64,000 nucleotides of DNA from a virus (lineage: Duplodnaviria; Heunggongvirae; Uroviricota; Caudoviricetes). The notes beneath the pieces are model-generated. The model searched no databases and was not told the DNA's origin. It saw nothing but the letters and a program-made list of their open reading frames with translations. The stretch lies in IMG/VR virus record IMGVR_UViG_3300027747_001395; one strand, written 5' to 3'. A program made the position numbers and the translations under genes. This document shows, piece by piece, positions 1,407 through 64,000 of this stretch (the first letter of the stretch is position 1; every line of letters starts with the position of its first letter).

Positions 1407-2078
1407 ATGAAGCTTATTAGAGAAATTTTTGAAGACGTTCAATACGTCACAGAAGCAAAAGAAGATGGCGGAAAGAACTTCTATATTGAAGGTGTTTTTC
1501 TACAGTCTGCAATCAAAAACCGTAACGGCCGTATGTACCCAGAACATATTATGGACAAAGAAGTTGCCCGCTATATGAAAGAAGCCGTAGATACTAAAAC
1601 TGCTATGGGTGAACTTGGACACCCAAATGGTCCACAGATTAACCTTGATCGCGTTTCTCACCGTATTGTAAGTCTTCGTAAGGAAGGTACTGATTATGTC
1701 GGTAAAGCTATGATTACTAATACTCCAATGGGTAATATTGCCAAGGGTATTATGGAATCAGGTGCTAGACTTGGAGTCTCATCACGTGGTATGGGCTCAT
1801 TGAAGCTCAACAAAGAAGGTGTAAATGAAGTTCAGGGCGATTTTAGATTAGCTACTGCTGCTGATATTGTTGCAGATCCTTCTGCTCCAAATGCTTGGGT
1901 GAATGGTATTATGGAGAATTGCGATTGGGTTTACGACGAACGACTAGGTTGGAAAGCAGTTCAGATTCTTGAAAATACCAAGAAACAAATTGAGGCTGCA
2001 GTTACTTCCAAATCATTAAATGAGAATACTAAACTGAAAATGTTTGAATCATTTTTAAGAAAAATTTCAAAAATCTAA
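1407..2078 (+). CDS. gp21: Prohead protease gp21
   Basis: IEGVFLQ..KNRNGRMY, GELGHP, GVSSRGMGSL, ADIVADPSAP motifs; synteny. Confidence 0.97.
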   Translation: MKLIREIFEDVQYVTEAKEDGGKNFYIEGVFLQSAIKNRNGRMYPEHIMDKEVARYMKEAVDTKTAMGELGHPNGPQINLDRVSHRIVSLRKEGTDYVGKAMITNTPMGNIAKGIMESGARLGVSSRGMGSLKLNKEGVNEVQGDFRLATAADIVADPSAPNAWVNGIMENCDWVYDERLGWKAVQILENTKKQIEAAVTSKSLNENTKLKMFESFLRKISKI

Positions 2079-3169: not shown

Positions 3170-3177
3170 TATAAATA
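3170..3177 (+). promoter_or_regulatory. T4-type late promoter for gp23
   Basis: TATAAATA 45 nt upstream of gp23 start. Confidence 0.9.
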
Positions 3178-3221
3178 AAGAATAGCTTATAATAAAGCTT
3201 AAAAATAACGGAGAAGAAAAA

Positions 3222-4595
3222 ATGTCATATTTAAATGAAGAAATTCAAAATAAGTGGAAGCCAATCCTCGAGCACGACGATCTTCCATCAATTAAAGATG
3301 CTCACAAGCGCGCAGTTACTGCACAGATTCTTGAGAATACTGAGAATGCAGTTCGTGAAGCACGTGCAGCAATGTCAGGTGGTTTCCTTGGTGAAGCTGG
3401 TCCAACCAACTCAATTGGTAACCCAGATTCAACAAACGCCGGTGCAATTGATACCTTTGATCCAGTACTTATCTCACTAGTTCGTCGTGCAATGCCTAAC
3501 CTTATTGCATATGATGTTTGCGGCGTCCAGCCAATGACAGGTCCAACAGGACTTATCTTTGCTATGCGTGCACGTTATGCTAACCAGACTGGTTCTGAAA
3601 CTTTCTACAACGAAGTTAATACCGGTCAGTCCGCTCGCGGTGGTGCAAACGGTCAGTATACAGATACTGCTGCTGCTTCTGCAACTGCCCTTGGTGGTGC
3701 AAATACAAACGTAGGTACTTACCCAGCTGCTTCAAACAATGCTGGTAACAGTGCATACAACTTTGCTGCTGGTCTTAACACTTCATTCGCTGAAGGTCTA
3801 GGCAACACCCCATCAGTATTCCCAGAAATGGCATTCTCAATCGAGAAAGTTACAGTTTCTGCTAAGACACGTGCTCTAAAGGCTGAATACTCACTTGAAC
3901 TTGCTCAGGATCTAAAGGCAATCCACGGTCTTGATGCTGAAACAGAACTAAGCAATATTCTTTCTGCGGAAATTCTTGCTGAAATCAACCGTGAAGTTAT
4001 TCGTTCAATCGTTATTACTGCTAAGCAAGGTGCAGAATCCGGTACAACAACTGCTGGTATCTTTGATCTTGACACTGACTCAAATGGTCGTTGGTCTGTT
4101 GAGAAGTTCAAGGGTCTTATGTTCCAAGTAGAGCGTGAAGCAAATGCTATCGCTAAGGGCACCAGACGTGGTAAGGGTAACGTAATCATCTGTTCATCAG
4201 ATGTTGCTTCTGCCCTTCAGATGGCTGGCGTTCTTGACTACGCTCCTGCTCTAAACAGCAACAACCTACAGGTTGATGACACAGGCAATACTTTTGCTGG
4301 TGTTCTTAACGGCCGTCTCCGCGTGTACATTGATCCATATGCTGGTTCAAACTACATGGTTGTCGGTTACAAGGGTTCAAGTGCATTTGATGCAGGTATT
4401 TTCTACTGCCCATACGTTCCACTTCAGATGGTTCGTGCGGTTGATCCTAATACCTTCCAGCCAAAAATCGGCTTCAAGACTCGTTACGGTATGGTAGCAA
4501 ACCCATTCGCTGAAGGTCTTACTGCTGGTCAAGGTACTCTTACACAAGATTCCAACAACTATTACCGCCGTATTATTATTTCAAATCTCATGTAA
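3222..4595 (+). CDS. gp23: Major capsid protein gp23
   Basis: DPVLISLVRRAMPNLIAYDVCGVQPMTGPTGLIFAMR, RALKAEYSLELAQDLKAIHGLDAE, FQPKIGFKTRYG. Confidence 0.99.
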   Translation: MSYLNEEIQNKWKPILEHDDLPSIKDAHKRAVTAQILENTENAVREARAAMSGGFLGEAGPTNSIGNPDSTNAGAIDTFDPVLISLVRRAMPNLIAYDVCGVQPMTGPTGLIFAMRARYANQTGSETFYNEVNTGQSARGGANGQYTDTAAASATALGGANTNVGTYPAASNNAGNSAYNFAAGLNTSFAEGLGNTPSVFPEMAFSIEKVTVSAKTRALKAEYSLELAQDLKAIHGLDAETELSNILSAEILAEINREVIRSIVITAKQGAESGTTTAGIFDLDTDSNGRWSVEKFKGLMFQVEREANAIAKGTRRGKGNVIICSSDVASALQMAGVLDYAPALNSNNLQVDDTGNTFAGVLNGRLRVYIDPYAGSNYMVVGYKGSSAFDAGIFYCPYVPLQMVRAVDPNTFQPKIGFKTRYGMVANPFAEGLTAGQGTLTQDSNNYYRRIIISNLM

Positions 4596-51819: not shown

Positions 51820-52565
51820 TGTATAACATAATATTCTTATTACCGCATCATGAAAATAAAGAAAGTCTTGAAGATACCATTTCTAATCTGTTTAAATTTA
51901 ATTCAAATATTTGCGTCTATATTAATAATGGTTCCAATGAAAACCTGGATGATTTAAATAGTGATAGAGTTTGTATAATAGACAGAAAGGTTCAATATAA
52001 AAAATTTGATACTATGATTCCATTACATATAGAATTATACGATCAAATTAAAAAAGATAATGTACATTCTGAATATGTCTGTTTATTAGCAACAAATCAA
52101 CTTTTTGTTAAATCTAATCTATATGAGCTAATGCGTAATTATGATGCTTCTTTCTTTGAACGTGAGATAGATTCAGGGTGTATATCAAGTTTATGTAATA
52201 ATCAAATATTCAGGATTTATTACGATAAACTCAATAACAATTTCAAATATCAATCCAATCCAGATGGTATGTTTTTTAAATATTCTATATTTACTGAAAT
52301 GATCGAATATTTTGATAAATTTAGAGACACACAGGTTGAATATCACGCAGATGAATTTCTATACGTTGCATATCTTTTATTCAAAAATTATTCTTTATTA
52401 GAATTTAAAAATTACAACTATTGGCAAGTTGATTGGAGAGTGAATCTAAACCCTGTGGATTTAAATGAGATAAAATCTATAGTGAAGAATGATAAATTTT
52501 ATATAGTTAAACGGATAGCAAGAAATATTAATGATGAGGCTAGAAAATATGTCAAAAATTTATAA
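51804..52565 (+). CDS. Hypothetical protein, glycosyltransferase-like
   Basis: Operon context; IVKRIARN C-terminus; weak motifs. Confidence 0.45.
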   Translation: MDFFVMYNIIFLLPHHENKESLEDTISNLFKFNSNICVYINNGSNENLDDLNSDRVCIIDRKVQYKKFDTMIPLHIELYDQIKKDNVHSEYVCLLATNQLFVKSNLYELMRNYDASFFEREIDSGCISSLCNNQIFRIYYDKLNNNFKYQSNPDGMFFKYSIFTEMIEYFDKFRDTQVEYHADEFLYVAYLLFKNYSLLEFKNYNYWQVDWRVNLNPVDLNEIKSIVKNDKFYIVKRIARNINDEARKYVKNL

Positions 52566-53595
52566 TATGGAAGTAATTGTTCCAGCTGCTGGGTTGTCAA
52601 CAAGGTTTCCTGGTATGAAACCAAAATATCTGTTATATGATTATAAGCACAATTTGATGATTTCTAACGCTATTAAACCATATTTAGATTTAAAGATCCC
52701 TGTCACTATTGGAATACTTAAAGAACATGATAATGAGTATGATGCCACCATGTTTCTTAAGCATGAATTTGGAGATTCTATAAATATTATAATTTTAGAC
52801 GAGCCAACCAAGGGCCCGGCAGATACTGTTTATCAAATACTTAAAAAAGCAAATATTAGAAATACTCAAATTTTAATTAAAGATTGTGATAGTTTCTTTG
52901 ATCATAATATAATCAAGGGTAATTATGTATGTGTATCAAGAATATCTGACCATTCTGTACTCAAGAAAATTTCTTCTAAAAGTTTTGTAATAGCAAATGA
53001 TCAACATATAATCACAGACATTATAGAAAAGCAAGTAGTGTCGAATACGTTTTGTGTTGGTGGATATTCATTTGAAAACTCTGATAACTATATTGAGGCT
53101 TATGAAGAATTACAAACTCAAAATGAAGTATTTGTTTCGGATGTGATTTCTCGCTGTATATTTAATGGTCATATTTTTTCTGAAAACTTTATAAGAAATT
53201 ACACAGATGTGGGAACTTCATCAGATTGGTTTGAATATAATGACAAGCCTGTAATTTTTTGTGATATTGACGGAACAATTATTGTAAGTCAGACAAGAGT
53301 TGGAAAGAATAATTTTCAATCAGAACCCATAGCACTTCAAAATAATGTAAATAGGCTATTGGAGTTGCAGAATTCAGGTGCTCAATTTATTTTTACGACG
53401 GCTAGACAAATTGGATATGAAAAGGTTACTAGAGAACTACTAAATAAACTAGGGTTTATCAATTATCAACTTATAATGAATCTATTGAATAGTAAGAGAA
53501 TTATTATTAATGACTATAATAAAAGTAATCCATTTCCACGAGCAATAGCAATAAACGTTCCTAGAAATAAAGATGAATTGAGTGATTATCTATGA
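52531..53595 (+). CDS. Sugar-phosphate nucleotidyltransferase fused to HAD phosphatase
   Basis: VPAAGLSTRFP..KPK, KGPADT, DCD; C-terminal FCDIDGT, FTTAR, IIND. Confidence 0.85.
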   Translation: MMRLENMSKIYNMEVIVPAAGLSTRFPGMKPKYLLYDYKHNLMISNAIKPYLDLKIPVTIGILKEHDNEYDATMFLKHEFGDSINIIILDEPTKGPADTVYQILKKANIRNTQILIKDCDSFFDHNIIKGNYVCVSRISDHSVLKKISSKSFVIANDQHIITDIIEKQVVSNTFCVGGYSFENSDNYIEAYEELQTQNEVFVSDVISRCIFNGHIFSENFIRNYTDVGTSSDWFEYNDKPVIFCDIDGTIIVSQTRVGKNNFQSEPIALQNNVNRLLELQNSGAQFIFTTARQIGYEKVTRELLNKLGFINYQLIMNLLNSKRIIINDYNKSNPFPRAIAINVPRNKDELSDYL

Positions 53596-54263
53596 GTAAA
53601 AATTGTTTCATTATAACATCTTCAGTTAAACCTTTAATGGGTTTGATTTCCCACGAACAAAGATATAAACAGACCATAGACTGTTTAACTCAATTGAGAA
53701 TAAAATTGCCAAATGAAATCTTGGTTTTGGCTGATTGTTCGGTTATTCCATTATCAGATAAAGAAAAAATGGAATTAGAATCTAAAGTAGACTTATTCAT
53801 TGATCTTTCTATGTGTGAGAGAACATTTAATTATTCTAAACAAGGTTTAAAAAGTCATGCAGAAAATTCTTTATTATATACTGCAATAACAAAATTGAAA
53901 GAAGAAATATTTTTTAAAGACTGCAAAAGGATCTTTAAATTTTCTTCTAGATCATGGCTTACTGAACATTTCAATTTAAGTGATTATGATAATACTTATG
54001 GTAAGTATGTATTTAAAAAGCGAATACCTACATGGATGTCATCAGCTAACATAACTGATCTTCTTATTACTAGAATGTATTCTTTTTGTTCGTCCTTAAC
54101 TAATGACTATTTGGAAGTAATTGACAATAATATGAAAGTTCTAAATAGTTTAGATACAGAGCACGCACATTTTCTTAATACACCTAAAGACAAATTGATA
54201 GAATTTAATAATATTCATTGTTGGGGTGTTTTGGCAGGGAACGGAAATATAGAACATTATTAG
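53592..54263 (+). CDS. Hypothetical protein, glycosyltransferase-like
   Basis: FIITSSV...RYKQT, RIFKFSSR; operon context. Confidence 0.45.
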   Translation: MSKNCFIITSSVKPLMGLISHEQRYKQTIDCLTQLRIKLPNEILVLADCSVIPLSDKEKMELESKVDLFIDLSMCERTFNYSKQGLKSHAENSLLYTAITKLKEEIFFKDCKRIFKFSSRSWLTEHFNLSDYDNTYGKYVFKKRIPTWMSSANITDLLITRMYSFCSSLTNDYLEVIDNNMKVLNSLDTEHAHFLNTPKDKLIEFNNIHCWGVLAGNGNIEHY

Positions 54264-54266
54264 AAA

Positions 54267-54274
54267 TATAAATA
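54267..54274 (+). promoter_or_regulatory. Late promoter
   Basis: Intergenic TATAAATA. Confidence 0.8.
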
Positions 54275-54300
54275 ATTCTTTTAATAGAGGAATTATTTGA

Positions 54301-55512
54301 GTGGCATCTACAGGGGCTATGGCTTGGAATAAACACTTTAAAGATAAGTGTCCTATTCTTACTACTATAAAAAAAGAAAGTATTGTCTATAATCAAGATA
54401 ATAAACCTGTAGGAAGAGTCAGAGCAAATCAGCCTGTTATTGCACTTGAATCTAAAATATATTTAGAAAAATATCCTGTTCAATTAACAGACAAACGAAT
54501 TGTTTACGTCACTTTTAATAATATACAAAAACCTAAAAGTAAAAGAGTCTCTGGTATTAAATTAAAGCCACAAGACTTTAAAGCATTTCAAAATAAGACA
54601 TTATGGAAATCTAAAGATTTAGCTAAAGCATTAGTTGATGAAATAGAAGAACGTCAAGATCTTGATCCAGCATTAAAAACATACTTAATTGCTATTACAA
54701 AGTATTATGCTAAATTGAATAATACTTCACCACAAGATGTAGATAGTGTTTATTCTTCATCCATGCCTGGTTTGGCTGAAATACAAAAAGATTATGGTGA
54801 AATTCTTGGAGCATTAGCAGCAATAAATTATGGTTTACTTTCTCAGACTGGAATTAGATTAAATGAGTCTAATTTTTTGGAATTTCCTTTAAGAGGCAAT
54901 GAACCTATAGTTGACTATTATATTCATACAGGAAAGAATAAATTGTCAATTTCTGCTAAAAGCGGTTCGACTACAAATACATTAAAACCTGCCGATGTGA
55001 TAACGTTATTAGGTAAAAATAATTCAAAATGGAATACTAAACCTATCTATAAAGTTATGGAATTAGTTCGAGATAAATCTGTAACTGAATTTCCATTTTA
55101 CGCTTTAAATCTAATTAAACCAAATATTATCACAAATAAAGCACTTCAAGAAGTTAGTTCTAAATTTAAAAATGTAAATTTTCAAAGTGATAAGTATCAA
55201 TATCATCTTTTTGATAGTGTTTACAAATATTTAGGATTAAATATCACGAAACCTTTAAAAATTGGTGAATTATTTTATCGGGTAGAAAAATCAATTGTAA
55301 ATAGTTTAAACGAAAAATATTCACCAGATGACATATTTAAAGATGCAATAAATGGTTTGGTCATTTATGTTAAATTTCAAATCTCTTCTCAAAATAAACA
55401 CGGGAAATTTGAGGTGATGACTTCTGATATGATGAAACCAAATAAAAAAATAAAATGGAGATCTAAAAATTATGCAGGAAAGGCTGCAGATAAAGTCGGA
55501 TTCCAAACATGA
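54301..55512 (+). CDS. Late protein with restriction-endonuclease-like PD-(D/E)xK motif
   Basis: DYGEILGA...EPIVDYY...ISAKSG; AT-rich. Confidence 0.5.
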   Translation: MASTGAMAWNKHFKDKCPILTTIKKESIVYNQDNKPVGRVRANQPVIALESKIYLEKYPVQLTDKRIVYVTFNNIQKPKSKRVSGIKLKPQDFKAFQNKTLWKSKDLAKALVDEIEERQDLDPALKTYLIAITKYYAKLNNTSPQDVDSVYSSSMPGLAEIQKDYGEILGALAAINYGLLSQTGIRLNESNFLEFPLRGNEPIVDYYIHTGKNKLSISAKSGSTTNTLKPADVITLLGKNNSKWNTKPIYKVMELVRDKSVTEFPFYALNLIKPNIITNKALQEVSSKFKNVNFQSDKYQYHLFDSVYKYLGLNITKPLKIGELFYRVEKSIVNSLNEKYSPDDIFKDAINGLVIYVKFQISSQNKHGKFEVMTSDMMKPNKKIKWRSKNYAGKAADKVGFQT

Positions 55513-55515
55513 TTG

Positions 55516-55544
55516 TTGACATTTTTTCAAAAATAAATTAGAGT
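55516..55544 (+). promoter_or_regulatory. Early promoter
   Basis: TTGACA-17-TAGAGT. Confidence 0.75.
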
Positions 55545-55550
55545 TCTAAT

Positions 55551-56156
55551 ATGGTAAAACAAAGATTCAAAGAGTTTATAGGTTCTGGTACACTTACAAT
55601 CTTCGATATTGATGAGACCCTCTTCCATACAAAGGCTAAAGTCGGTGTGGTTAAGGACGGCAAAGTCATACGAAAATTAGATAACCAAGAATTTAACACA
55701 TACGAGCGTAAACCTGGGGAAACCTATGACTTCGGCGAATTTCGATCCGCCGAAGTTTTTCGTAGAACTTCGGTCCCAGTAGTTCGGATGATTGAAAAGG
55801 CTAAGGCAGTTGTCAAAGCTAAAAACAATCCACACAGCCGTGCTATTATCTGTACTGCCCGTGCTGACTTTGATGACAAGCATATGTTTCTTCAGACGTT
55901 CCGTGATCATGGAATTCCAATTGATGATATGCACGTCGAGCGTGCTGGTAATCTTGGTCTTGATTCAAGTGCTGAAGCCAAGAAGGTTATATTTCGTCGT
56001 TATATAAATACTAAAAATTATACTAAACTCCGTCTATATGATGATGCAATGAGTAATCTAACTGCATTTCTGGATCTTGAAGATGAATATCCACATGTCA
56101 AGTTTGAAGCTTATTTTGTGAAGCCAGACGGCTCTACCAAGGTTATTAAACGATGA
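55551..56156 (+). CDS. HAD-superfamily phosphatase (polynucleotide 3'-phosphatase-like)
   Basis: FDIDETL, CTAR, YDDA; N-terminus QRFKEFI. Confidence 0.8.
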   Translation: MVKQRFKEFIGSGTLTIFDIDETLFHTKAKVGVVKDGKVIRKLDNQEFNTYERKPGETYDFGEFRSAEVFRRTSVPVVRMIEKAKAVVKAKNNPHSRAIICTARADFDDKHMFLQTFRDHGIPIDDMHVERAGNLGLDSSAEAKKVIFRRYINTKNYTKLRLYDDAMSNLTAFLDLEDEYPHVKFEAYFVKPDGSTKVIKR

Positions 56157-56308
56157 AAACATTTGCTGAATTTAAAGAAGAACTGTCCATTAGAGATGCT
56201 TCTGGTAAGCCTACAAAAGTAAAGAATGTGCCTATCAGAATGGCTGATGGAACAATTAAAAATCTACCACCTGGTAAGTCTGGCTCATCTGGCGGAGGTG
56301 GTGACTGA
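56153..56308 (+). CDS. 51-aa internal-protein-like ORF with capsid-targeting N-terminus
   Basis: MKTFAEFKEE; manually read; ATGA coupling. Confidence 0.7.
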   Translation: MKTFAEFKEELSIRDASGKPTKVKNVPIRMADGTIKNLPPGKSGSSGGGGD

Positions 56309-57267
56309 TGCAACGCTTTAAATCTTTCATTACTGAGGCTTCAATTCGCCAAGGCCTTCCTCATCTCTACTCCACCAAAACAGCTGCTGGTAATGACACA
56401 CCTTCACTTTCTACCGACCAGTTCCATCATCTCACAAAAGGTGGTAAAGTTTTAATCCACCATATAACTGAAAAGACCGATGGTCAGACTTTTAAGATGG
56501 GTCATGACGAACACGGCTTTTATACTCAGCACTCTGGATCTGGTGACGAAAAGATTCGTACAGCTCAAGGTCATATTGATCGAGCCAAGCGCCGGGCACA
56601 AGAAACTGGTAAGCCATATGACCCTACCGCACCTGAAGCATTTGCTAAATTCCATGATGCTCTTCATAAGAATAAAGCATTACAAGCTCATTTAGCATCA
56701 GAATATAAGCGCACAGGTAACGAAGTTGTAGTGAAGGGTGAAGCATTTAATAATGCTCTTGCTCGCCCATCTGACACAAAGAAGGGTGAAGTCAAGTTTG
56801 TTCATACTTCATACAAGAAGCCAAGAGGTTTAGGTACATTTGTCATTCATTCAAGACTACCTGAAAATCAAGGGCATGATACGGAGCACTTCAAGAAACA
56901 TCTATCAGATTCTAATATTAACTTTGAAGATGATAAGATTGCTCACAAGCCAGGTCATGTTGATGTTGCAGATGAAGTAAAAGAGTTTCATGGACTCAAT
57001 CACGAGCTTATTAATTCACGAACCACACCAAAAAATAAAGCAGCAAAGACCGCAGAGCTTGACAAGTTTAATGCAGTCAAGAAAAAAGTTAGTGATAAAG
57101 TAACCAGACACCTCGGATCACTTGGTATTAAGAATAAATTTGGTTCTGGAACCGAAGGTCTTGTTGTTCATCCATCTGCTGCAAATCCAGAAGCACCTCG
57201 CTTCAAAGCCATCAATCCTGCTTTCAAGGAAGCAAAAGCCAAAAGTTCAAGATTCGGAGCCAAGTAA
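56308..57267 (+). CDS. Ligase-like covalent nucleotidyltransferase with capsid-targeting N-terminus
   Basis: MQRFKSFITE; TEKTDG (KxDG), KGEAF, EGLVV, FKAIN. Confidence 0.7.
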   Translation: MQRFKSFITEASIRQGLPHLYSTKTAAGNDTPSLSTDQFHHLTKGGKVLIHHITEKTDGQTFKMGHDEHGFYTQHSGSGDEKIRTAQGHIDRAKRRAQETGKPYDPTAPEAFAKFHDALHKNKALQAHLASEYKRTGNEVVVKGEAFNNALARPSDTKKGEVKFVHTSYKKPRGLGTFVIHSRLPENQGHDTEHFKKHLSDSNINFEDDKIAHKPGHVDVADEVKEFHGLNHELINSRTTPKNKAAKTAELDKFNAVKKKVSDKVTRHLGSLGIKNKFGSGTEGLVVHPSAANPEAPRFKAINPAFKEAKAKSSRFGAK

Positions 57268-59093
57268 TGCAGAGATTTAAAGCGTTTATTCTAGAGGGTG
57301 GCAACATCCGTGTCGGACCAAAAGGTCAGGAAACATCTGCTGCGGCATTTCCGGTAACTGCAGGTACTCGCCATCAGGTCCGCCATGACATTCACCATGC
57401 TTTAACAGCAATTGGTGACACATTTCATAAGGAACACGGCGAGCATCTATTCGGTCAGGATCATCAGCGCCTTCATGATGCTACTGCATATACCGGCTCT
57501 ACTCACGATCTCATGGGTCACCACGTATCACATGCTGAATTTGCAAAGCATAAACCAATGGTTGGTGACGTTGACACTCAGGTGACACCAGAACATAAAG
57601 AAAAACTAGCTACTCATCTTACACCAGGCAGAAAGTTTGGTAAGTATACAGTTGTCGGAACCAAGAAGCATGGTAATGAAATCTCTGCAGTTATGCGTCA
57701 TGAGAATGGTGAACATCATCAGTTTGATTTCCAAGGTGTAAATCACCCAGGTTCGGAAGCTTCGAGATTCTTACATGGATCAAACTGGGAAGACACAAAG
57801 GCAGGAATTAAAGGTGCTCACCACAAAATCCTTCTAAATGCGGTTGCCGGTGATACTCATAAGTTCTCAATTACACACGGTCTTCGCTCACGTACTGATG
57901 AATCTGATCCTGGTGTACAACACCCACATGAAGTTACCAAGAAGCTATTTGGTGCTAATGCCGATCATAATAATATCCATTCATTCCATGGTGTAACTCA
58001 ACTGATCAAGAAGCACATCCCTAAAGAACAGCACCAGGCAATCTACGATAAGTTTAAGGGTGCCGTATCTAAAATGAAGGGTATGGATCATGGTCCTGCT
58101 CTTGCTCATATGCGTAAGCATCTCGGTGTGGTTGATACGGTTAATGAAGCTAGAGAAGCACAAGATCCTGGTGAGAATCATGAAACGACCATAGGTCGCA
58201 AACTTGCAGCACATCGACTTATTAATAGCTTAACTGATAAGAATGAGAAAGATGTAATAAAGCATAGATATATTCATGGTCGTACATTAGAACAGACTGC
58301 TAATGTTTTAGGTCTAAGAAATAGAGAACATGCTAGACAAATTGAAGCCAAAGCTTTACGTAGTATGAGAAATAGATCAGATCTATACGATAAAGATGGT
58401 GCACGTGATTATGTAAAAGAAGCTATGAAAGATGATCCCTGCTGGACAGGTTATAAAATGATCGGCAAAAAGAAAAAGAACGGCAAGGAAGTTCCTAACT
58501 GCGTTCCTGTTCACGAGGAAGAAACACATCACGTCCACGTCTCATATCTAGGCGCTTCACCATTCCCACACATGGGACACCATACTGATATTGGCGGTTC
58601 AATGGAAGCAGCACCACACGGCAAGAAGTTTATCGGTCTATCTGGTAAGTCTGATGCATTCTCAGATAAGGAACGTGAAGATATTGCCAACAAGCAGTCA
58701 GGTGGTAAGGTTGATTTCCAAACAGTAAAGTCACCAGGTGTTACAATTGCCAAGGCTCATGCGAGTATGCCTGCTACTGGTAGAAAGGTTCTTCATCTTC
58801 ACTTTGGGCATGACCGTCAGAAGTTTGCGGAAGGTCTTAAGCACTCAGTAGAGAATGGCAAGATTCCAGAGCTTCAAGGTCACAAGTTTGACGAAGTTCA
58901 TGTTCATCTACCAAAAGATGAAAATCGTTCACATGGTCTATCAGGTACAAAGATGCGAACTGCTGCGGAATCCGGCGACCTAAATACATTTAAGAAACAT
59001 GTCGGTCCTAACTTCTCCGATAAGGAAGTTAAAGGTCTTATGGATCGAACACGTGTAGGTTTAATGGCAGGCAAGATCAAGGTAAAAAGATGA
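57267..59093 (+). CDS. Multidomain cargo protein: Pol-beta-like NTase, sigma70 region 4, Cys module, HIGH-type cytidylyltransferase-like domain
   Basis: MQRFKAFILE; GS...GDVD; LTD.NE.DVI..RY...TLEQ.A..LG..RE..RQIEAKALR; DPCW..NCVP; PHMGH, GHDR, SGTKMR. Confidence 0.75.
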   Translation: MQRFKAFILEGGNIRVGPKGQETSAAAFPVTAGTRHQVRHDIHHALTAIGDTFHKEHGEHLFGQDHQRLHDATAYTGSTHDLMGHHVSHAEFAKHKPMVGDVDTQVTPEHKEKLATHLTPGRKFGKYTVVGTKKHGNEISAVMRHENGEHHQFDFQGVNHPGSEASRFLHGSNWEDTKAGIKGAHHKILLNAVAGDTHKFSITHGLRSRTDESDPGVQHPHEVTKKLFGANADHNNIHSFHGVTQLIKKHIPKEQHQAIYDKFKGAVSKMKGMDHGPALAHMRKHLGVVDTVNEAREAQDPGENHETTIGRKLAAHRLINSLTDKNEKDVIKHRYIHGRTLEQTANVLGLRNREHARQIEAKALRSMRNRSDLYDKDGARDYVKEAMKDDPCWTGYKMIGKKKKNGKEVPNCVPVHEEETHHVHVSYLGASPFPHMGHHTDIGGSMEAAPHGKKFIGLSGKSDAFSDKEREDIANKQSGGKVDFQTVKSPGVTIAKAHASMPATGRKVLHLHFGHDRQKFAEGLKHSVENGKIPELQGHKFDEVHVHLPKDENRSHGLSGTKMRTAAESGDLNTFKKHVGPNFSDKEVKGLMDRTRVGLMAGKIKVKR

Positions 59094-59347
59094 AAACATT
59101 CTGTCAGTGGATTAAGGAAAGTTTACCAACAAATAGTACTGGTGGTGGAATCAGAGGTCTAGGTAATGTCACTGGAGTACCTGGTGGCACTATTTCTAGT
59201 TATGCCGCATTTAATGCATCTGATACTAGTGTTAGCGACGCTGTGAATGCTATGCATGCTACCACTAATAATACTGGTGATGTTAAAGATAGTAATACTG
59301 CTGACACAAAAAATAATATCTTGAAAGTAGGTAAAGGTAAGAAATAA
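59090..59347 (+). CDS. Small internal-protein-like ORF with capsid-targeting N-terminus
   Basis: MKTFCQWIKE then SLPTNSTGGGIRGLG. Confidence 0.65.
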   Translation: MKTFCQWIKESLPTNSTGGGIRGLGNVTGVPGGTISSYAAFNASDTSVSDAVNAMHATTNNTGDVKDSNTADTKNNILKVGKGKK

Positions 59348-60255
59348 TGGCACAATGGAGAATTGACCAACAGAAGAAAGTTGAACAGAACAGTAAGACA
59401 CTATATGAATTGGGGATGATTGCTACAGTAAATGGTGATCCAGTTACTAATGTGAATCCGTTCCCAGTAACACTTGGTTCCAATAATATTACAATCACTG
59501 GAAATGTTAATGTTGGAACAACTGTACAGGTGTCTAGTACTCCTGAAAATCCAATACACAGCCATATTACTGAAGTTGGTAATAGTGGTATTCTAACAGT
59601 TTCGTATATGCCTATTAGTGGTAATGTAGTAATTACATCAGGCAATCTAAATGCAAATGTTACTGGTATTGTTAACGTAGGCAACTTCCCTGCATCACAG
59701 AATGTTGTTGTAACTTCTGGTAATATAAATATTACTAGTACTGTTACTGTTATTACAACACAAGAAGCGGGTGATTTATATTCCTTTAATAATCATGCAA
59801 TAAATACGAATCGTGGTTGGACTATGGACGATACTATGCGTCCTGTTGTTAGTTTTAGAAATAATAGTGCAAGTGTTGCGGATTTAATAAAAATTATTGA
59901 ATATGAAATTGGAAACAACAACGCTAATCAAAGCACTATTGTGTATGAGTGGTATGAAGGTGATCTAACAATAACTGGAGCAGCTATACCTGCTTGGACT
60001 ACGTTTGGTGTTCACAGTCAATATCGTGTATATCAAGACAAATATTCTTCTAATCAAGGAAACACGTTTACTCCAAATGGTTCAATAATGAGACACAGTG
60101 GTATCATTATTGGTAAGAATACATCTGGTGATGAAGGCCCAAAATCAATGCATGGCGGTGGAACTCCAAATATGCTTACTTTGTGTATGAGACGTGTTGA
60201 TAACTCAACCAAACTAGACGTATGGTTTGCATTTACTATTAAGGAACTAGCATAA
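59347..60255 (+). CDS. Putative virion structural protein (beta-rich)
   Basis: Repeated GNVNV/SGNV motifs; TPENPIHSHITEVG. Confidence 0.6.
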   Translation: MAQWRIDQQKKVEQNSKTLYELGMIATVNGDPVTNVNPFPVTLGSNNITITGNVNVGTTVQVSSTPENPIHSHITEVGNSGILTVSYMPISGNVVITSGNLNANVTGIVNVGNFPASQNVVVTSGNINITSTVTVITTQEAGDLYSFNNHAINTNRGWTMDDTMRPVVSFRNNSASVADLIKIIEYEIGNNNANQSTIVYEWYEGDLTITGAAIPAWTTFGVHSQYRVYQDKYSSNQGNTFTPNGSIMRHSGIIIGKNTSGDEGPKSMHGGGTPNMLTLCMRRVDNSTKLDVWFAFTIKELA

Positions 60256-60256
60256 A

Positions 60257-60550
60257 ATGAAAACATTAAAAGCTTTTATATTAGAATGTATCTTATTAGA
60301 ACGAGGTGAGGATTCAAAAGGATATAAAAGATCCACAGAAGATGGGGCTGGGTTAACTAGAAAAGGCGCTAAAGCTGCAGGTGTTAAAACAGCTGTTACA
60401 ACACCACCAAGTAAACTAGACCCAAATGGTAAAGCAGCAAAAAGACGTAAGTCATTCTGCGCTCGTATGAGTGGTGTGCCTGGTCCAATGAAAGATGAAA
60501 AAGGTCGTCCAACTCGTAAGGCTGCATCACTAAAGCGTTGGAACTGTTAA
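60257..60550 (+). CDS. Basic internal-protein-like ORF (DUF6321-like) with capsid-targeting N-terminus
   Basis: MKTLKAFILE; GAGLT.KG, RRKSFCARM, RWNC. Confidence 0.7.
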   Translation: MKTLKAFILECILLERGEDSKGYKRSTEDGAGLTRKGAKAAGVKTAVTTPPSKLDPNGKAAKRRKSFCARMSGVPGPMKDEKGRPTRKAASLKRWNC

Positions 60551-60562: not shown

Positions 60563-60570
60563 TATAAATA
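60563..60570 (+). promoter_or_regulatory. Late promoter
   Basis: Intergenic TATAAATA. Confidence 0.85.
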
Positions 60571-60575
60571 TATTG

Positions 60576-60770
60576 TTAAGGCTAAGGCAAACACGTTTTT
60601 AATAACAGATAAGCCCAAGGGAAACTCTGATGGAAAGAATAATACAAGTACCAACCCGCAACACACTCATTTCTTCTCCCAAACTAGACTATGTTGTCGG
60701 AGAAATAGGTTGTCTTAGCCTTAATCAAACAAAGTTACAAGTCTCTTGATCGTTTGATCTTGGGGCTGTT
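60576..60770 (+). ncRNA. Putative structured RNA or 5' leader with pseudoknot
   Basis: 15-bp P1 (60576-60590/60710-60724), 7-bp hairpin (60724-60730/60752-60758), crossing helix (60612-60619/60759-60767). Confidence 0.6.
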
Positions 60771-60788
60771 TTAGTATTAGAGGAAGTT

Positions 60789-63700
60789 ATGGACAAAATA
60801 AACGAAATTACTGAAGGTGATTACAAATTAAAAAAGACCGGACTAGAAAAAACTATTGCTCACCCAGAAGGTAAAGCAACTTATGAAGTTCATCATAATG
60901 GACAAATTATTGGTAAAATAAAGCCATATAGTTCATATCTTGATAAGAAAAAACCTGGTTCTAGAATAGTATCAAGTCGAAAAAATATTACTAGTTATTC
61001 GTTCGATTTCAATGGTAATCATGGCCCAAGGTCTCATGAAATGGGTACTTTTGTTTATATGGGTCACTCTAATCCTAAAGTGGCACTTCAACGAATGTCT
61101 AAAGAACATCAGACATTTAAAGCAAAACAAAAGAATGAAGAAGTAAACCTAGATGAAAATATTTTAAACATTCAGCAACGTCAAAAGCGTGCTATTGAAA
61201 TGCGTAGAAATGAACCAAGAATTGAAATTGCCAGAGAACGAGCTAAGAAAAAAGTGGCGCCTGAAGCAAATATCAAGAAGCGTTCATATGCAATGGCAAG
61301 ACAACTTGTTCGTAGCAGACTTACTAATGTTTCACAAGCTGAATATGCTAAGATGGGCCCATCTGAAAAGATGGCAATTGACCGAGTTATCGAAAAGAAA
61401 GGACCTGCTATCAAGAAATTAGCAATGCGTCTAATTCCAAAAGTCAAGAAGGCTGAATATGCCCGACTTCAATCTTATATGCATGGACAGCAAATGGCTA
61501 ACCATGGAGCACCGGAAGGAAATCACGTGTCAGAATCTTTAAATAACCTGTTCCTAGAATACTTTGGTGATTCCGCACCAGGTAATAGTGGATCCACAGG
61601 TGAGCGTTCAGATAGTCCAATTAATTCTAGCGGTCGCAAGATTGCTAAATCAAATACTAAAGGTGATTCTCAGGGTAACGCCAAAGGTGGCACAAAGACT
61701 AAAGGATCTCCCATTGTCCAATATGGCAAGTTCGGTGAAGATCTAGAAGTTGATAGTCCTGTTTTTAAAGCTCTTATTAAAAAGGCTGATGCTACTAATC
61801 TTGATCTAGAGATTCTTGGTGAAGTCTATAATCGTGGGCTTGAAGCTTGGAACGAGGATTGCTCAGTATCACAACAGCAGTACGCATTTGCTCGTGTAAA
61901 CTCATATATCAATCAGGGTAGAACATACTTTAATGAAGATGCTGATTTGCACGAACTTTCAAAGTCAACACTTAAATCGTACCTAGCTAAAACTAAAGAA
62001 GGTGGAAAACAATATCCAACACCACTATCATTTAGAAAATCAATGGAGTCTCAGGGTATTGCTAAAGGTAAACTTGGACTAAAATATAAAAGACGTCCAG
62101 TACCTGATGTGAAAATTAAGGCTACAAATGAAGAAGTAGAGCTTCAAGAAGATGAAGCTCCAGCTAAGGTAGGTGACAAAGTTTATCTCAAAACAAAAGT
62201 ACACGCTAATTCCCCACATACTGGTAAAGTAAAAAAAGTTACACCTACTCATGTTCATTTAGATACTGGTCATGGAATTTATAAAGCACCTCATTCTGCT
62301 ATTACTAAAGATTATAAGCAATCTCATCTTCATGTTAACTACGGTAGTAAGAATGAAGAAGTAGAAGTAACTGAAGGTAAATTTACTGCTCATGTAAGCA
62401 AGAATGGTCGTAGTCATGGAACAGTTAAGCTTTCTGCTATTGATCGAGAAAATGCTGAATATCAGATGAAGAAGCATCCTTATTACAAGCACTTTACAGT
62501 TGATAAAGTTGTAAAAGAAGAAAATCTTGAAGAAAAAAGAGGTCTGTGGGATAACATTCATGCTAAGCAAAAAAGAATCAAAGCTGGTTCGGGTGAACGT
62601 ATGCGTAAACCAGGTTCGGAAGGAGCACCATCTAATTCTGATTTAAAAGCTGCTCAGGAATCAGTAGACTTTGAAGAATCAAAGAATACGCCATATGTAA
62701 AAGCATATTTTGAAAAAGGTCAGACAAAGCAAAATTCATGGAAAGCTATGAACAAGCATGGTCATGTCAAGCACTTTGGTCTTCCTTTTAAGAAAGCAGC
62801 TGAATTACATGCTGGTCTTTCTGAGGGAGTACAATCAGATTTTTTAGATGAAATGGCCGGAGCGAATATGGATCGCCGTGCTCTGGTCTCACACATTACA
62901 AATAAAGGATGGCAGAAGAAGGCAAGTGGTGGAAGCGGCGACCATGATGTATTCACACATCCAAAGTCTACACACCGTCTAGCAGTTCCTAGGCATAACA
63001 AGCTTAAGGCACCTTTAATTCTTGATGTGCTCAAGAAGTCCAAAATTATGGACAAGACCAATGAGGAAATAGAATCAGTAGATGAACATATAGTCAAGGT
63101 CAAGAGCGGTTACCGTCTAGTTTCTAAATCATCTGGTAAGAATCTAGGTACTTATCCTACTAAGGAGGGTGCTGAGAAACGTGAAAAGCAAGTTCAATAC
63201 TTCAAGCACCAGAACGAAGAAGTAGAACTTGATGAGGTTCTGTTAAGTTCATTTAAAAAGACTGAAAAGTTTGGCGGTAAAGATCTAGGTAAACATATCT
63301 CTACTATTGAAGGTACTAAGCATATTGGCACACTAGAAAATGGACATCATGTTTATCATAGTTATGATCCAAAAGATAAAATGCATGACTATCATGTAGT
63401 AGACCCAAAGACCAAGCGAATCAACATTCACCTTACAACCAAGCAGCAGGCGGCTCCTGGTGCTGAAGAAGTTAGTGTTCTAACTGCTAATGACAAATCA
63501 CTTGGTGCACATCATCTCTACCAGCACCTTGTGACAAAGCACAACAAGATTATCTCATCTAATGACCAGTCACCAGGTGCTAGAAGTGTATGGGCAAAAG
63601 TTGGAAAGCATAAAGGCATTCATATTCATGGATATGATCCTATCAGCAAGACAACATTTCACATGAAGCCATCTGATGATGAAGAATACATAGATAGAGA

Positions 63701-64000
63701 TAATAAGGAAGTAAATACGGTCAAAGCAGATCGTAAACTTACTGCTCCAAAATCCAAAGATCGTGCCGCACATGATGCAGAATTAGAAGATCTTGATAAA
63801 AAGAAATATACATACATTGTAATGCACAAAAAGAGTGGTCTCAAGGAAGATCTTGAATCATATCTTTCAGAATCAACACTACCTAAAAGTTATACCAAAG
63901 GTCTCACTCCTGCTGAAATAAAAGCAAAAAAAGCACATATTGAAAGAAATAATAAACTTTCCGATAGGGATCCAGATGCTTATAAAGATATGCCTGGAGA
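60789..64000 (+). CDS. Large modular internal head polyprotein (>1070 aa, runs off the window) containing HicA-like and GNAT-like modules
   Basis: Manually translated with no stop from ATG 60789 to the window end; GAGG RBS; repeated acidic NEEVxLxE-like linkers; absent from ORF track because it is 3'-open. Confidence 0.88.
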   Translation, partial: MDKINEITEGDYKLKKTGLEKTIAHPEGKATYEVHHNGQIIGKIKPYSSYLDKKKPGSRIVSSRKNITSYSFDFNGNHGPRSHEMGTFVYMGHSNPKVALQRMSKEHQTFKAKQKNEEVNLDENILNIQQRQKRAIEMRRNEPRIEIARERAKKKVAPEANIKKRSYAMARQLVRSRLTNVSQAEYAKMGPSEKMAIDRVIEKKGPAIKKLAMRLIPKVKKAEYARLQSYMHGQQMANHGAPEGNHVSESLNNLFLEYFGDSAPGNSGSTGERSDSPINSSGRKIAKSNTKGDSQGNAKGGTKTKGSPIVQYGKFGEDLEVDSPVFKALIKKADATNLDLEILGEVYNRGLEAWNEDCSVSQQQYAFARVNSYINQGRTYFNEDADLHELSKSTLKSYLAKTKEGGKQYPTPLSFRKSMESQGIAKGKLGLKYKRRPVPDVKIKATNEEVELQEDEAPAKVGDKVYLKTKVHANSPHTGKVKKVTPTHVHLDTGHGIYKAPHSAITKDYKQSHLHVNYGSKNEEVEVTEGKFTAHVSKNGRSHGTVKLSAIDRENAEYQMKKHPYYKHFTVDKVVKEENLEEKRGLWDNIHAKQKRIKAGSGERMRKPGSEGAPSNSDLKAAQESVDFEESKNTPYVKAYFEKGQTKQNSWKAMNKHGHVKHFGLPFKKAAELHAGLSEGVQSDFLDEMAGANMDRRALVSHITNKGWQKKASGGSGDHDVFTHPKSTHRLAVPRHNKLKAPLILDVLKKSKIMDKTNEEIESVDEHIVKVKSGYRLVSKSSGKNLGTYPTKEGAEKREKQVQYFKHQNEEVELDEVLLSSFKKTEKFGGKDLGKHISTIEGTKHIGTLENGHHVYHSYDPKDKMHDYHVVDPKTKRINIHLTTKQQAAPGAEEVSVLTANDKSLGAHHLYQHLVTKHNKIISSNDQSPGARSVWAKVGKHKGIHIHGYDPISKTTFHMKPSDDEEYIDRDNKEVNTVKADRKLTAPKSKDRAAHDAELEDLDKKKYTYIVMHKKSGLKEDLESYLSESTLPKSYTKGLTPAEIKAKKAHIERNNKLSDRDPDAYKDMPG

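What the first reader, a model, noticed from the sequence alone, without database searches (positions are those of the whole stretch)
60789..64000. Unlisted >1070-aa polyprotein: basic modules strung on repeated prohead-protease-type linkers
Seen: the frame is open from ATG 60789 to the window end. About 12 Lys/His-rich modules are separated by acidic linkers ending in a hydrophobic-x-Glu: KNEEVNLDE, NHVSE, DADLHE, TNEEVELQE, KNEEVEVTE, KEENLEE, ESVDFEE, SDFLDE, TNEEIESVDE, QNEEVELDE, ESYLSE. It lies behind a TATAAATA late promoter. Established: T4 gp21 cleaves head proteins after (I/L)-x-E, and internal proteins are injected with the DNA. Inference: this is a capsid-packaged precursor that gp21 cuts into many small independent effectors delivered at infection, a 'magazine' of early effectors that needs no gene expression.
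Basis: partly seen in the sequence, partly recalled or inferred. Interest (0 to 1): 0.92.

Follow-up and report, generated by a model that had tools for sequence, protein, structure and literature searches.

The report
Phage cargo polyprotein with protease-site linkers
An uncultured T4-like phage encodes a 1538-residue late protein made of about 18 small, mostly basic modules joined at conserved hydrophobic-x-Glu junctions that match the cutting rule of its own head protease, so one gene probably loads many ready-made proteins into the capsid, though no cutting or packaging has been measured.

Summary
The frame is open from 60789 to the window end, and the full protein (P0002) has 1538 residues. 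All 11 listed linkers are present.

In 120 relatives the linker E-[ED]-[VIL]-x-[LVIFM]-x-E occurs 112 times against 3.3 expected. It precedes at least 56 different downstream sequences. P1 is Glu 112 times and Asp 5 times.

A hydrophobic-x-Glu sits directly before each module start across homologs (113/115, 89/94, 102/102 and others). Close relatives gain and lose whole modules exactly there.

The same modules also occur elsewhere:
- behind T4-type capsid-targeting leaders (MKTFKQHVVE|...);
- as free 49-aa genes in podoviruses that start at the predicted cut.

The phage has gp21, gp22 and gp23. Its gp23 carries FLGE|A at the T4 cleavage position, and neighbouring genes start with T4-like leaders.

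Recognisable modules are DUF5824 (two copies), a HicA-like RNase and, beyond the window, an alarmone-hydrolase-like HD domain.

I found no paper describing this arrangement. This scan has noted the same kind of polyprotein before on other DNA. I class it as a new variant of T4 internal-protein biology.

The parts
60563..60570 (+). T4-type late promoter motif TATAAATA, 219 nt upstream of the ATG
   Evidence: The motif and the leader are conserved upstream of the orthologue in L088.
60789..64000 (+). First 1070 of 1538 codons of the polyprotein gene (P0002). The gene runs about 1.4 kb beyond the window.
60789..60815 (+). Residues 1-9, MDKINEITE: a short acidic N-terminal peptide ending I-T-E. 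Possible propeptide, not a canonical CTS.
   Evidence: Relatives have MELIIE.. or no leader at all (MSEYKLKK).
60816..61157 (+). Module aa 10-123, basic (pI 9.7), no family hit; ends in the linker KNEEVNLDE.
   Evidence: The same module is internal in P0097 and P0100, after EDVELDE. Pfam and PHROGs give no hit.
61158..61535 (+). Module aa 124-249, conserved helical, very basic domain (pI 10.6); ends ..HVSE.
   Evidence: Present in 118/119 relatives; hydrophobic-x-E directly before it in 113/115. AF2 gives helices at pLDDT about 75-93.
61536..61955 (+). Module aa 250-389: a disordered spacer, then the C-terminal half of DUF5824; ends NEDADLHE.
   Evidence: Pfam PF19141 at 333-386. AF2: 237-319 disordered, 320-389 helical. 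V-x-E precedes it in 64/70 relatives.
61956..62150 (+). Module aa 390-454 (LSKSTLKSY...), ends TNEEVELQE.
   Evidence: Absent as an exact cassette in P0005 and P0007. A paralogous module lies in ORF 1-1002 and in the downstream polyprotein.
62151..62375 (+). Module aa 455-529, His-rich; weak ProQ-C/Tudor-like lead; ends KNEEVEVTE.
   Evidence: Pfam PF24203, E 0.002, below cut-off. Junction kept 5/5.
62376..62534 (+). Module aa 530-582, ends KEENLEE.
   Evidence: Missing as a cassette in P0006 and P0007, with breakpoints inside the linkers.
62535..62678 (+). Module aa 583-630 (KRGLWDNIHAK...), phrog_16028; ends ESVDFEE.
   Evidence: Junction kept 89/94. Free 49-55-aa genes in pelagiphage HTVC168P, cyanophage P-GSP1 and Limnohabitans phage DC33 start within a few residues of this residue.
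62679..62852 (+). Module aa 631-688 (SKNTPYVK...), ends SDFLDE.
   Evidence: Junction kept 52/53, behind at least six different linker variants.
62853..63086 (+). Module aa 689-766, HicA-like (dsRBD-fold RNase toxin family); ends TNEEIESVDE.
   Evidence: Pfam PF07927: 30.3 bits against a cut-off of 27 when cut out. phrog_353 'toxin'. Absent as a cassette in P0005, P0006 and P0008.
63087..63236 (+). Module aa 767-816, ends QNEEVELDE.
   Evidence: Junction kept 9/9. P0004 and P0007 carry an extra 54-aa cassette inserted in this linker.
63237..63872 (+). Module aa 817-1028, 211 aa, His-rich; weak GNAT-like lead; ends ESYLSE.
   Evidence: The Atlas finds free viral proteins of 160-200 aa (scores 0.90-0.91) and GNAT clusters only at 0.86-0.88. 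No Pfam hit.
63873..64000 (+). Start of module aa 1029-1167 (complete DUF5824 copy), cut off by the window end.
   Evidence: Pfam PF19141, 101.6 bits, residues 1047-1164 of P0002.
1407..2078 (+). gp21-type head maturation protease, the presumed processing enzyme.
   Evidence: phrog_207, E 3.6e-74.
3393..3395 (+). Glu58 of the major capsid protein (gene 3222-4595) in ..GGFLGE|AGP.., aligned to the T4 gp23 propeptide cleavage site FLTE|AEIGG.
   Evidence: The mature T4 chain is 456 aa against 521 aa for the full-length chain.
55551..60550 (+). Upstream late genes whose products begin with T4-CTS-like peptides: MVKQRFKEFI, MQRFKSFITE, MQRFKAFILE, MKTFCQWIKE, MKTLKAFILE.

Best explanation
The gene encodes a head-cargo polyprotein of a T4-like phage. 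A conserved 'chassis' carries a variable string of small cassettes. The chassis is a basic helical domain plus DUF5824 at the front and a three-piece tail at the extreme C-terminus. Every junction ends in L/I/V/F-x-Glu, and the consensus linker is E-E-V-E-L-D-E.

My reading of the mechanism is as follows.
1. The protein is made late and built into the prohead core.
2. The phage's gp21-type protease cuts after each junction Glu, as it cuts gp23 and CTS-bearing internal proteins.
3. The resulting basic pieces of about 5-25 kDa stay with the DNA and enter the next host with it.
4. The pieces include a HicA-like RNase and an alarmone-hydrolase-like HD enzyme.
5. The same linkers are the joints at which relatives gain and lose cassettes.

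Shown: the modular anatomy, the conservation and Glu-specificity of the junctions, cassette exchange at the junctions, interchangeability of linker and CTS in front of the same module, and the T4-type context.

Inferred: incorporation into proheads, cleavage by gp21, retention, injection, and effector roles.
For: 1. Linker E[ED][VIL]x[LVIFM]xE: 112 occurrences in 120 family members against 3.3 +/- 1.7 in shuffles. [LIVMF]xE: 2639 against 1706. [LIVMF]xD is not enriched: 1303 against 1268.
2. P1 is Glu 112 times and Asp 5 times. P3 is L 76, I 19, V 14. The linker precedes at least 56 distinct downstream and follows at least 58 distinct upstream sequences. This fits the T4 gp21 rule L/I-x-E and the report that Asp at CTS position 10 blocks processing (PMC9026906).
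3. A hydrophobic-x-Glu directly precedes the module start in homologs: 113/115, 64/70, 89/94, 52/53, 102/102, 45/45, and 4/4 to 9/9 for rarer modules.
4. Most relatives begin MDELDE|VLNIQQRQKRA, that is, they keep a linker remnant at the very N-terminus. Our first module is internal in P0097 and P0100.
5. There are exact cassette indels at the junctions among relatives of about 42-89% identity. A 54-aa extra cassette in P0004 is flanked by an exact 20-nt repeat encoding EEVELDE.
6. The same C-terminal pieces occur behind T4-type CTS leaders: P0256 MKTFKQHVVE|AAKTADKKPVVVP.., with its Glu aligned to our E1481, and P0217 MKKFKQFIIE..IVE|SFAID.., aligned to E1442. In P0241 the piece follows both a CTS and a NEEIEIDE linker.
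7. Free podovirus genes start within a few residues of the predicted P1' of module 583-630.
8. Context: gp21, gp22 and gp23 are present. gp23 has FLGE|A at the T4 cleavage position. CTS-like neighbours. Late promoter motif. The same linkers occur in the ORF just upstream of gp21. 3 of 3 near-complete contigs with DUF5824 proteins have a gp21 homolog.
9. AF2 places the HVSE249 junction in a disordered stretch.
Against: - There is no proteomic or biochemical datum for this protein or any relative.
- The ORF's own N-terminus is not a canonical CTS, and one relative (P0016) has no leader, so the targeting signal is unidentified.
- The phiM12 homolog (gp159) is annotated 'hypothetical', not 'virion structural protein', in a record that uses that label for another gene. 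Whether that label reflects the published proteome could not be checked. This is weak evidence.
- At the E389 junction 5 of 30 aligned relatives have Gly or Lys instead of Glu. The DLHE there lies at the end of a predicted helix. D-L-x-E is an intrinsic end of DUF5824 in a second protein family too.
- Within this gene the linker DNA identity is no more than codon usage predicts.
Confidence: 0.6

Rival explanations
1. An uncut 'polyvalent' bead-string protein. The chain is packaged, or acts in the cytoplasm, as one long multidomain protein. The acidic linkers are only flexible, DNA-repelling spacers and recombination joints, not protease sites.
For: Polyvalent proteins of phages with 2-15 domains are established as a class, and some (N4 vRNAP) are packaged unprocessed (PMC5512222). 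Cassette exchange at the linkers could by itself explain why the linkers are conserved.
Against: A spacer does not need Glu rather than Asp at one fixed position. It does not need a hydrophobic residue at -3. It does not need a linker remnant at the extreme N-terminus (MDELDE) in most relatives. The same module boundary is served by a T4-type CTS in P0256 and P0217, and T4 removes the CTS by cleavage. None of the polyvalent hub domains was found by Pfam.
Confidence: 0.2
2. A prohead core or scaffold accessory that gp21 degrades and that mostly leaves the head, as T4 gp22, gp67 and gp68 do. The modules would serve assembly or charge balance, not delivery.
For: An ORF with the same linkers lies just upstream of gp21, where (from my memory of the T4 map) T4 encodes core proteins gp67 and gp68. 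The conserved N-core and C-tail look structural, and AF2 finds no enzyme fold. T4 core proteins are cut into several fragments that exit the head.
Against: Enzyme-type cassettes (HicA-like, HD/alarmone hydrolase-like) and a rapidly shuffled cargo make little sense for a disposable scaffold. The pieces are basic, as are the retained T4 internal proteins (described as basic in PMC9026906), and unlike the very acidic scaffold gp22 of this phage (by eye from the translation).
Confidence: 0.1
3. A late cytoplasmic multidomain protein unrelated to the virion, either uncut or cut by another protease.
For: No canonical CTS at its own N-terminus. The phiM12 homolog is not labelled a virion protein in its record.
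Against: gp21-type L/I-x-E junctions, CTS-bearing versions of its modules, CTS-type neighbours, and homologs of its small modules inside podovirus head-gene clusters between scaffold and capsid genes.
Confidence: 0.1

Closest known systems
T4 internal proteins IPI, IPII, IPIII and Alt: capsid targeting sequence plus gp21 processing
   Same: A T4-type phage with gp21. Cut rule L/I-x-Glu with Glu required. Basic cargo. Late expression. A hypervariable gene cluster whose members begin with CTS-like peptides. Alt has short propeptides at both ends, and foreign proteins can be loaded and processed (PMC9026906).
   Different: T4 uses one gene per cargo protein, with one N-terminal CTS each. Here up to about 18 pieces are strung in one 172-kDa chain with internal repeated sites. 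The chain's own N-terminus is not a canonical CTS. There is a conserved chassis (DUF5824 core and C-terminal tail) that, as far as I recall, is unknown in T4.
Polyvalent proteins of phages and conjugative elements (Iyer, Burroughs, Anand, de Souza, Aravind 2017; PMC5512222)
   Same: Long phage proteins that combine many unrelated small domains. They are predicted to travel with the DNA and act first in the new host, and they show strong mosaicism.
   Different: Those are organised around hub domains (zincin-like MPTase, ArdC-N, ParB-like and others). Where processing is proposed, it is by an embedded peptidase. Here no such hub was found, and the junctions carry the site of a separately encoded prohead protease.
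Head and ejection proteins of giant phages phiKZ / SPN3US cut by their prohead protease (PMC10052503)
   Same: A gp21-related protease cuts after Glu in a three-residue motif. Several substrates are cut at more than one site, and many packaged proteins are ejected.
   Different: There, multiple cuts mostly chop up long N-terminal propeptides that are discarded, leaving one mature product per gene. Here each inter-site piece looks like a product.
MuF polymorphic toxins of temperate phages (PMC12226406)
   Same: A head-associated carrier region fused to exchangeable C-terminal toxin or enzyme domains thought to be delivered with the DNA.
   Different: A single cargo domain, a MuF carrier, and no repeated protease-site linkers.

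Membership tests
T4-type capsid-targeted internal proteins (CTS + gp21 processing) | Encoded by a phage with a gp21-type prohead protease and a T4-type head module | tested here: met
   phrog_207 (3.6e-74), phrog_237, phrog_138 at 1407-4595.
T4-type capsid-targeted internal proteins (CTS + gp21 processing) | N-terminal CTS of about 10 residues: key residues at positions 4 and 7 (aromatic in the T4 CTS as I recall it and as quoted in scan notes), I/L at 8, Glu at 10 | tested here: not met
   The ORF starts MDKINEITE: it ends I-T-E but has no aromatic pattern. The neighbours do meet the feature, for example MQRFKSFITE, and so do free versions of its C-terminal modules (P0256, P0217).
T4-type capsid-targeted internal proteins (CTS + gp21 processing) | L/I-x-Glu sites at product boundaries | tested here: met
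   This holds at the sequence level only.
T4-type capsid-targeted internal proteins (CTS + gp21 processing) | Actual cleavage by gp21, presence in the mature head, ejection | not testable with these tools
   Needs virion mass spectrometry or an in vitro protease assay.
Polyvalent proteins (Iyer et al. 2017) | Many unrelated domains in one phage polypeptide | tested here: met
   About 18 pieces; the family hits are DUF5824 (twice), HicA-like and HD.
Polyvalent proteins (Iyer et al. 2017) | Characteristic hub domains (zincin-like MPTase, ArdC-N, DdrB-ParB, ART and others) | tested here: not met
   No such Pfam or PHROG hit in P0002 or in its cut-out modules.
Pfam DUF5824 (PF19141) | Score above the gathering cut-off | tested here: met
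   101.6 bits against 25; two stretches, the full copy at 1047-1164 and a half copy at 333-386.
HicA toxin (PF07927), module 689-766 | Score above the gathering cut-off, and the G-x-H catalytic His segment | tested here: met
   30.3 bits against 27 when cut out. 'SGDHDVFTHP' is present (by eye). No PDB sequence match. RNase activity untested.
RSH-type HD (p)ppGpp/(p)ppApp hydrolase, module 1249-1413 (outside the window) | HD hydrolase domain with the H..HD..ED motif, similar to Rel/SpoT hydrolase, SAH or Aph1 | tested here: inconclusive
   phrog_990, 2.9e-30. PDB hits 7oiw, 6yvc, 6z3n, 7smg at E 6e-7 to 1e-5, with LLHDTLEDT aligned. Pfam HD scores 19.4 against a cut-off of 22.

The most novel reading that the evidence does not exclude
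T4-like phages of aquatic bacteria use a standard seven-residue joint (EEVELDE) as a three-in-one device. It would be a prohead-protease cut site, a capsid-loading handle related to the CTS, and a recombination joint. Any small gene could then be dropped in frame into a 'magazine' and be delivered pre-made and in fixed stoichiometry with the DNA. Cargo would include a HicA-type RNase kept harmless inside the precursor and an alarmone hydrolase that could blunt (p)ppGpp/(p)ppApp-based defences before any phage gene is expressed.
Probability: 0.3. Interest if true: 0.85.

Novelty: new variant of a known kind. Interest (0 to 1): 0.72.

Why it matters
If the junctions are cut, this family shows that T4-type phages extend the internal-protein/CTS principle into true polyproteins. 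The family has more than 400 clusters at 90% identity, and 221 clusters at 50% identity carry the C-terminal tail.

Consequences:
- It would be a cheap, evolvable way to deliver a set of ready-made proteins at the moment of DNA entry, which is when most host defences act.
- It would give a concrete list of candidate first-minute effectors and DNA-coating proteins.
- It would give a natural rule set (linker, Glu at P1, L/I at P3) for loading several foreign proteins into T4-type capsids.
- It would explain many 'hypothetical' giant ORFs in aquatic viromes.

Tried and rejected
- Complex prediction of gp21 with a 40-residue linker peptide (797-836): no answer, score 0.00. This counts neither for nor against binding.
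- AF2 of the conserved C-terminal tail (A2): mean pLDDT 53, unusable for fold search.
- AF2 of 125-389: good local confidence, but Foldseek found nothing in the PDB at E <= 0.001, and BFVD returned only family members.
- A fragment alignment for the small-module region (A3) was misaligned by MAFFT and was not folded.
- Megablast against phages, and an exact 38-mer search in IMG/VR: no match.
- No whole genome is held for the window.
- Rfam on 56-64 kb: nothing.
- The leader 60571-60800 folds no better than shuffles, z = -1.05.
- Search for free homologs of module 631-688: none.
- Test of silent-site fixation of the linker DNA within this gene: AATGAAGAAGTA recurs, but codon usage (GAA 84%, AAT 74%, GTA 44%) predicts most of it. 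Not supported here. The only DNA-level support is the 20-nt repeat in the relative L088.
- The phiM12 proteome paper (PMID 24503070) is not held. The DLP6 paper has no proteomics.
- Residue 1101 (NLDE), considered as a junction, is not conserved: 25/122.
Full report
OBSERVATION. The frame from ATG 60789 is open to the last base of the window, 1070 codons. A database look-up returned the complete product, P0002. It has 1538 aa and lies on a 187.5-kb contig (sequence). A 10-kb copy of the locus (L003) gives the rest of the gene and its downstream neighbours.

Their terminal Glu residues are E123, E249, E389, E454, E529, E582, E630, E688, E766, E816 and E1028. NEE[VI] occurs five times; by my own rough estimate from residue frequencies, chance expects far fewer than one.

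Beyond the window there are further junctions at E1167, E1224, E1413, E1442 and E1481. The pieces between junctions weigh 3-24 kDa and are nearly all basic (pI 8.9-10.6). The exception is 250-389, at pI 4.9.

TATAAATA lies at 60563-60570, 219 nt upstream of the ATG. The octamer occurs 16 times in the window against 6.45 +/- 2.33 in shuffles, and it often sits directly before genes such as gp23.

CONTEXT. The window belongs to a T4-like myovirus.
- The head protease gp21 (1407-2078), the scaffold gp22 and the major capsid protein gp23 are recognised with E-values of 1e-74 to 1e-169.
- The nearest cultured capsids are Stenotrophomonas phage DLP6 (68%) and Methylophilales phage Melnitz (65%).
- gp23 carries ..GGFLGE|AGP.., aligned to T4 ..GSFLTE|AEIGG... 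That is where the T4 propeptide ends, since the solved chains are 521 aa (full length) and 456 aa (mature).
- The genes just upstream of the polyprotein begin MQRFKSFITE, MQRFKAFILE, MKTFCQWIKE and MKTLKAFILE. In those that fit the register, an aromatic residue sits at positions 4 and 7, Ile at 8 and Glu at 10. These are the positions that matter for targeting (4, 7) and processing (8, 10) in the T4 capsid targeting sequence (PMC9026906).
- The truncated ORF at 1-1002, directly upstream of gp21, contains the same kind of linker: EETEDLDE|LSKTK and NATNEDLDE|AVS.

THE LINKER IS A FAMILY-WIDE, GLU-SPECIFIC JUNCTION. More than 400 proteins of 590-1550 aa from metagenomes are related to the query.
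- In the 120 best, the pattern E-[ED]-[VIL]-x-[LVIFM]-x-E occurs 112 times against 3.3 +/- 1.7 in residue shuffles.
- [LIVMF]-x-E is enriched (2639 against 1706), whereas [LIVMF]-x-D is not (1303 against 1268).
- Within the motif, the last position is Glu 112 times and Asp 5 times. The -3 position is Leu 76, Ile 19 and Val 14.
- The motif precedes at least 56 different downstream sequences and follows at least 58 different upstream sequences. It is therefore a general joint, not something inherited with one module.
- This matches the published gp21 rule L/I-x-E, and the finding that Asp at CTS position 10 blocks processing (PMC9026906).

JUNCTIONS ARE MODULE BOUNDARIES. I extrapolated each module's first residue into the homologs. 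A hydrophobic-x-Glu lies directly in front of it as follows:
- 113/115 for module 124-249
- 64/70 for 250-389
- 89/94 for 583-630
- 52/53 for 631-688
- 102/102 for 1443-1481
- 45/45 for 1482-1538
- 4/4 to 9/9 for the rarer modules

The linker variants and upstream modules differ in these cases. The background frequency of the tripeptide is about 2.6% per position (2639 in about 100,000 residues).

Most relatives start MDELDE|VLNIQQRQKRA.., which corresponds to our ..KNEEVNLDE|NILNIQQRQKRA... They keep a six-residue linker remnant at the very N-terminus, which a mere spacer would not need. Our extra first module (10-123) is internal in P0097 and P0100, behind EDVELDE.

Global alignments with relatives of about 42-89% identity show whole-cassette differences whose ends fall on or inside the linkers:
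- 390-454 is absent in P0005 and P0007.
- 530-582 is absent in P0006 and P0007.
- The HicA-like module is absent in P0005, P0006 and P0008.
- The HD module is absent in P0003 and P0004.
- A 54-aa extra cassette sits in the NEEVELDE linker of P0004 and P0007.

In the DNA of P0004 that extra cassette is flanked by an exact 20-nt direct repeat encoding EEVELDE. The repeat includes a Leu codon (CTG) that is rare in the window's copy of the gene. Within the window's own gene, however, linker DNA identity is no more than codon usage predicts.

LINK TO THE CAPSID-TARGETING SYSTEM. A profile of the conserved C-terminal tail found 221 clusters (50% identity level). The tail is almost always at the extreme C-terminus, in proteins of 51-1392 aa. 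Its three pieces also occur separately, and some stand behind canonical T4-type leaders:
- P0256 (57 aa) reads MKTFKQHVVE|AAKTADKKPVVVPTHTDAYGNVIPAKTVLRK... BLAST aligns its HVVE with our QIEE1481.
- P0217 reads MKKFKQFIIE..SIVE|SFAIDKVSGMG.., aligned to our KLDE1442|AFNIAFAAGIG.
- P0241 has a CTS, a module, a NEEIEIDE linker and then the same tail piece.
- Five of the 133 new representatives begin with such leaders.
- On the contig of P0256, the next genes are another leader-bearing small protein and a polyprotein with EEVELEE linkers.

So the same boundary is served interchangeably by a CTS, which T4 removes by gp21 cleavage, and by the linker.

Three of three near-complete IMG/VR contigs that carry DUF5824 proteins encode a gp21 homolog.

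MODULES AS INDEPENDENT UNITS. Module 583-630 corresponds to complete 49-55-aa genes in T7-like pelagiphage HTVC168P (gp30, between the scaffold and capsid genes), cyanophage P-GSP1 and Limnohabitans phage DC33. These start MAKRGLYANIHAK.. or MPGPGLWANIHAK.., within a few residues of our predicted first residue K583. HTVC168P gp31, next to it, is the DUF6321 protein. In our window the DUF6321 protein (60257-60550) carries a CTS-like prefix.

Family assignments for the modules:
- 689-766 passes the Pfam HicA_toxin threshold when cut out (30.3 against 27) and keeps the G-x-H segment.
- 1249-1413 is an HD phosphohydrolase (phrog_990, 2.9e-30). Its nearest solved relatives are Rel/SpoT hydrolase domains, small alarmone hydrolases and a (p)ppApp hydrolase.
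- 1029-1167 is a full DUF5824 and 333-386 is a half copy.
- 817-1028 resembles free viral proteins of 160-200 aa. It resembles GNATs only weakly.
- 455-529 has a sub-threshold ProQ-C-like hit.

AF2 of 125-389 gives two confident helical domains separated by a disordered stretch that contains the HVSE249 junction. No solved fold matches it.

MECHANISM. The most likely sequence of events is the one set out in the best explanation:
1. late synthesis;
2. incorporation into the prohead core;
3. gp21 cuts after each junction Glu;
4. retention of the basic pieces with the DNA;
5. entry of the pieces into the next cell.

The anatomy, the statistics, the cassette exchange, the CTS/linker equivalence and the T4-type context are shown. 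Every biochemical step is inferred.

The targeting signal is not identified. Candidates are the short acidic N-terminal peptide, the repeated linkers themselves, and the conserved C-terminal tail. T4 Alt has propeptides at both ends.

AGAINST, AND RIVALS.
- There are no proteomic data.
- The N-terminus is non-canonical, and P0016 has no leader.
- The phiM12 homolog is labelled 'hypothetical' in a record that labels another gene 'virion structural protein'. The proteome paper could not be read.
- 5 of 30 relatives lack Glu at the E389 junction. D-L-x-E is also the intrinsic end of DUF5824 in a second large family, with an N-terminal cytidylyltransferase, found in T4-like contigs.

The rivals are an uncut polyvalent-type bead string (0.2), a disposable core protein (0.1), and a non-virion late protein (0.1).

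COMPARISON AND NOVELTY. It works like the T4 internal proteins and Alt (CTS plus gp21). It fails the canonical-CTS criterion and differs in being a true polyprotein with a conserved chassis.

It resembles the polyvalent proteins of Iyer et al. 2017 (PMC5512222) in concept, but it lacks their hub domains and embedded peptidases. In phiKZ/SPN3US-type phages, multiple prohead-protease cuts mainly degrade propeptides (PMC10052503).

Full-text searches found no description of repeated gp21-site linkers in T4-like polyproteins.

This scan has reported the same kind of polyprotein on other DNA several times, for example with EDVELDE or QGVAEG linkers. The present window therefore adds a further, well-documented member rather than a first sighting. 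I rate it a new variant of a known kind, interest 0.72.

Noticed in passing
window 1-1002 (+), 5' truncated: The ORF directly upstream of gp21, where (from my memory of the T4 map) T4 has core genes 67/68, carries the same junctions (EETEDLDE|LSKTK, NATNEDLDE|AVS). It also holds a paralog of module 390-454. It is likely a second cargo or core polyprotein.
   Followed up: partly
window 55551-60550 (+): A run of late genes whose products start with T4-CTS-like peptides (MVKQRFKEFI, MQRFKSFITE, MQRFKAFILE, MKTFCQWIKE, MKTLKAFILE). The 608-aa one holds a Sigma70 region 4 domain (PF04545, 38.9 bits).
   Followed up: partly
L003:4796-7464 (downstream of the window): A ferritin/Dps-like gene (145 aa, PF00210) overlaps the polyprotein stop by 8 nt. 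It is followed by a second polyprotein (728 aa; FEQLDE|LSKKTL, KEEVEDLDE|AKKK). In the relative L088 that protein is only 460 aa. Further on are spanin-like genes and another CTS-type gene (MKQFKDFISE).
   Followed up: partly
window 60571-60788: The 218-nt leader has a 15-bp long-range helix. The leader and the TATAAATA are conserved upstream of the orthologue in L088. Overall folding energy is not better than shuffles (z = -1.05), and there is no Rfam hit.
   Followed up: partly
L004:1513-1907 (Pelagibacter phage HTVC168P gp30, gp31): Two tiny, very basic genes sit between the scaffold and capsid genes of a T7-like podovirus. They are homologs of polyprotein module 583-630 and of the window's DUF6321 gene. 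They may be unrecognised internal head proteins of podoviruses.
   Followed up: no
L027-L086 (IMG/VR): A second large family (about 800-1040 aa) starts MSKATFTFGRFNPPTE (cytidylyltransferase-like). It has DUF5824 in the middle, always ending ADKDLRE. At least one complete 173-kb contig with it encodes gp21.
   Followed up: partly
L088:3757-3920 region (P0004 residues 800-854): An exact 20-nt direct repeat GAAGAAGTAGAACTGGATGA (EEVELDE) flanks a 54-aa extra cassette in a close relative. This is suggestive of recombination between linkers.
   Followed up: partly
P0002 residues 1443-1481 (outside the window): A conserved Gly/Ala-rich hydrophobic 39-residue piece (AFNIAFAAGIG..GGFAYHPSV) is bracketed by two invariant junction Glu residues. 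It also occurs alone behind a CTS (P0217). Its function is unknown; it could be membrane-active.
   Followed up: no
window 48000-56000: A markedly AT-rich stretch (GC 0.28-0.32 against about 0.37-0.41 around it) lies just upstream of the CTS gene cluster.
   Followed up: no
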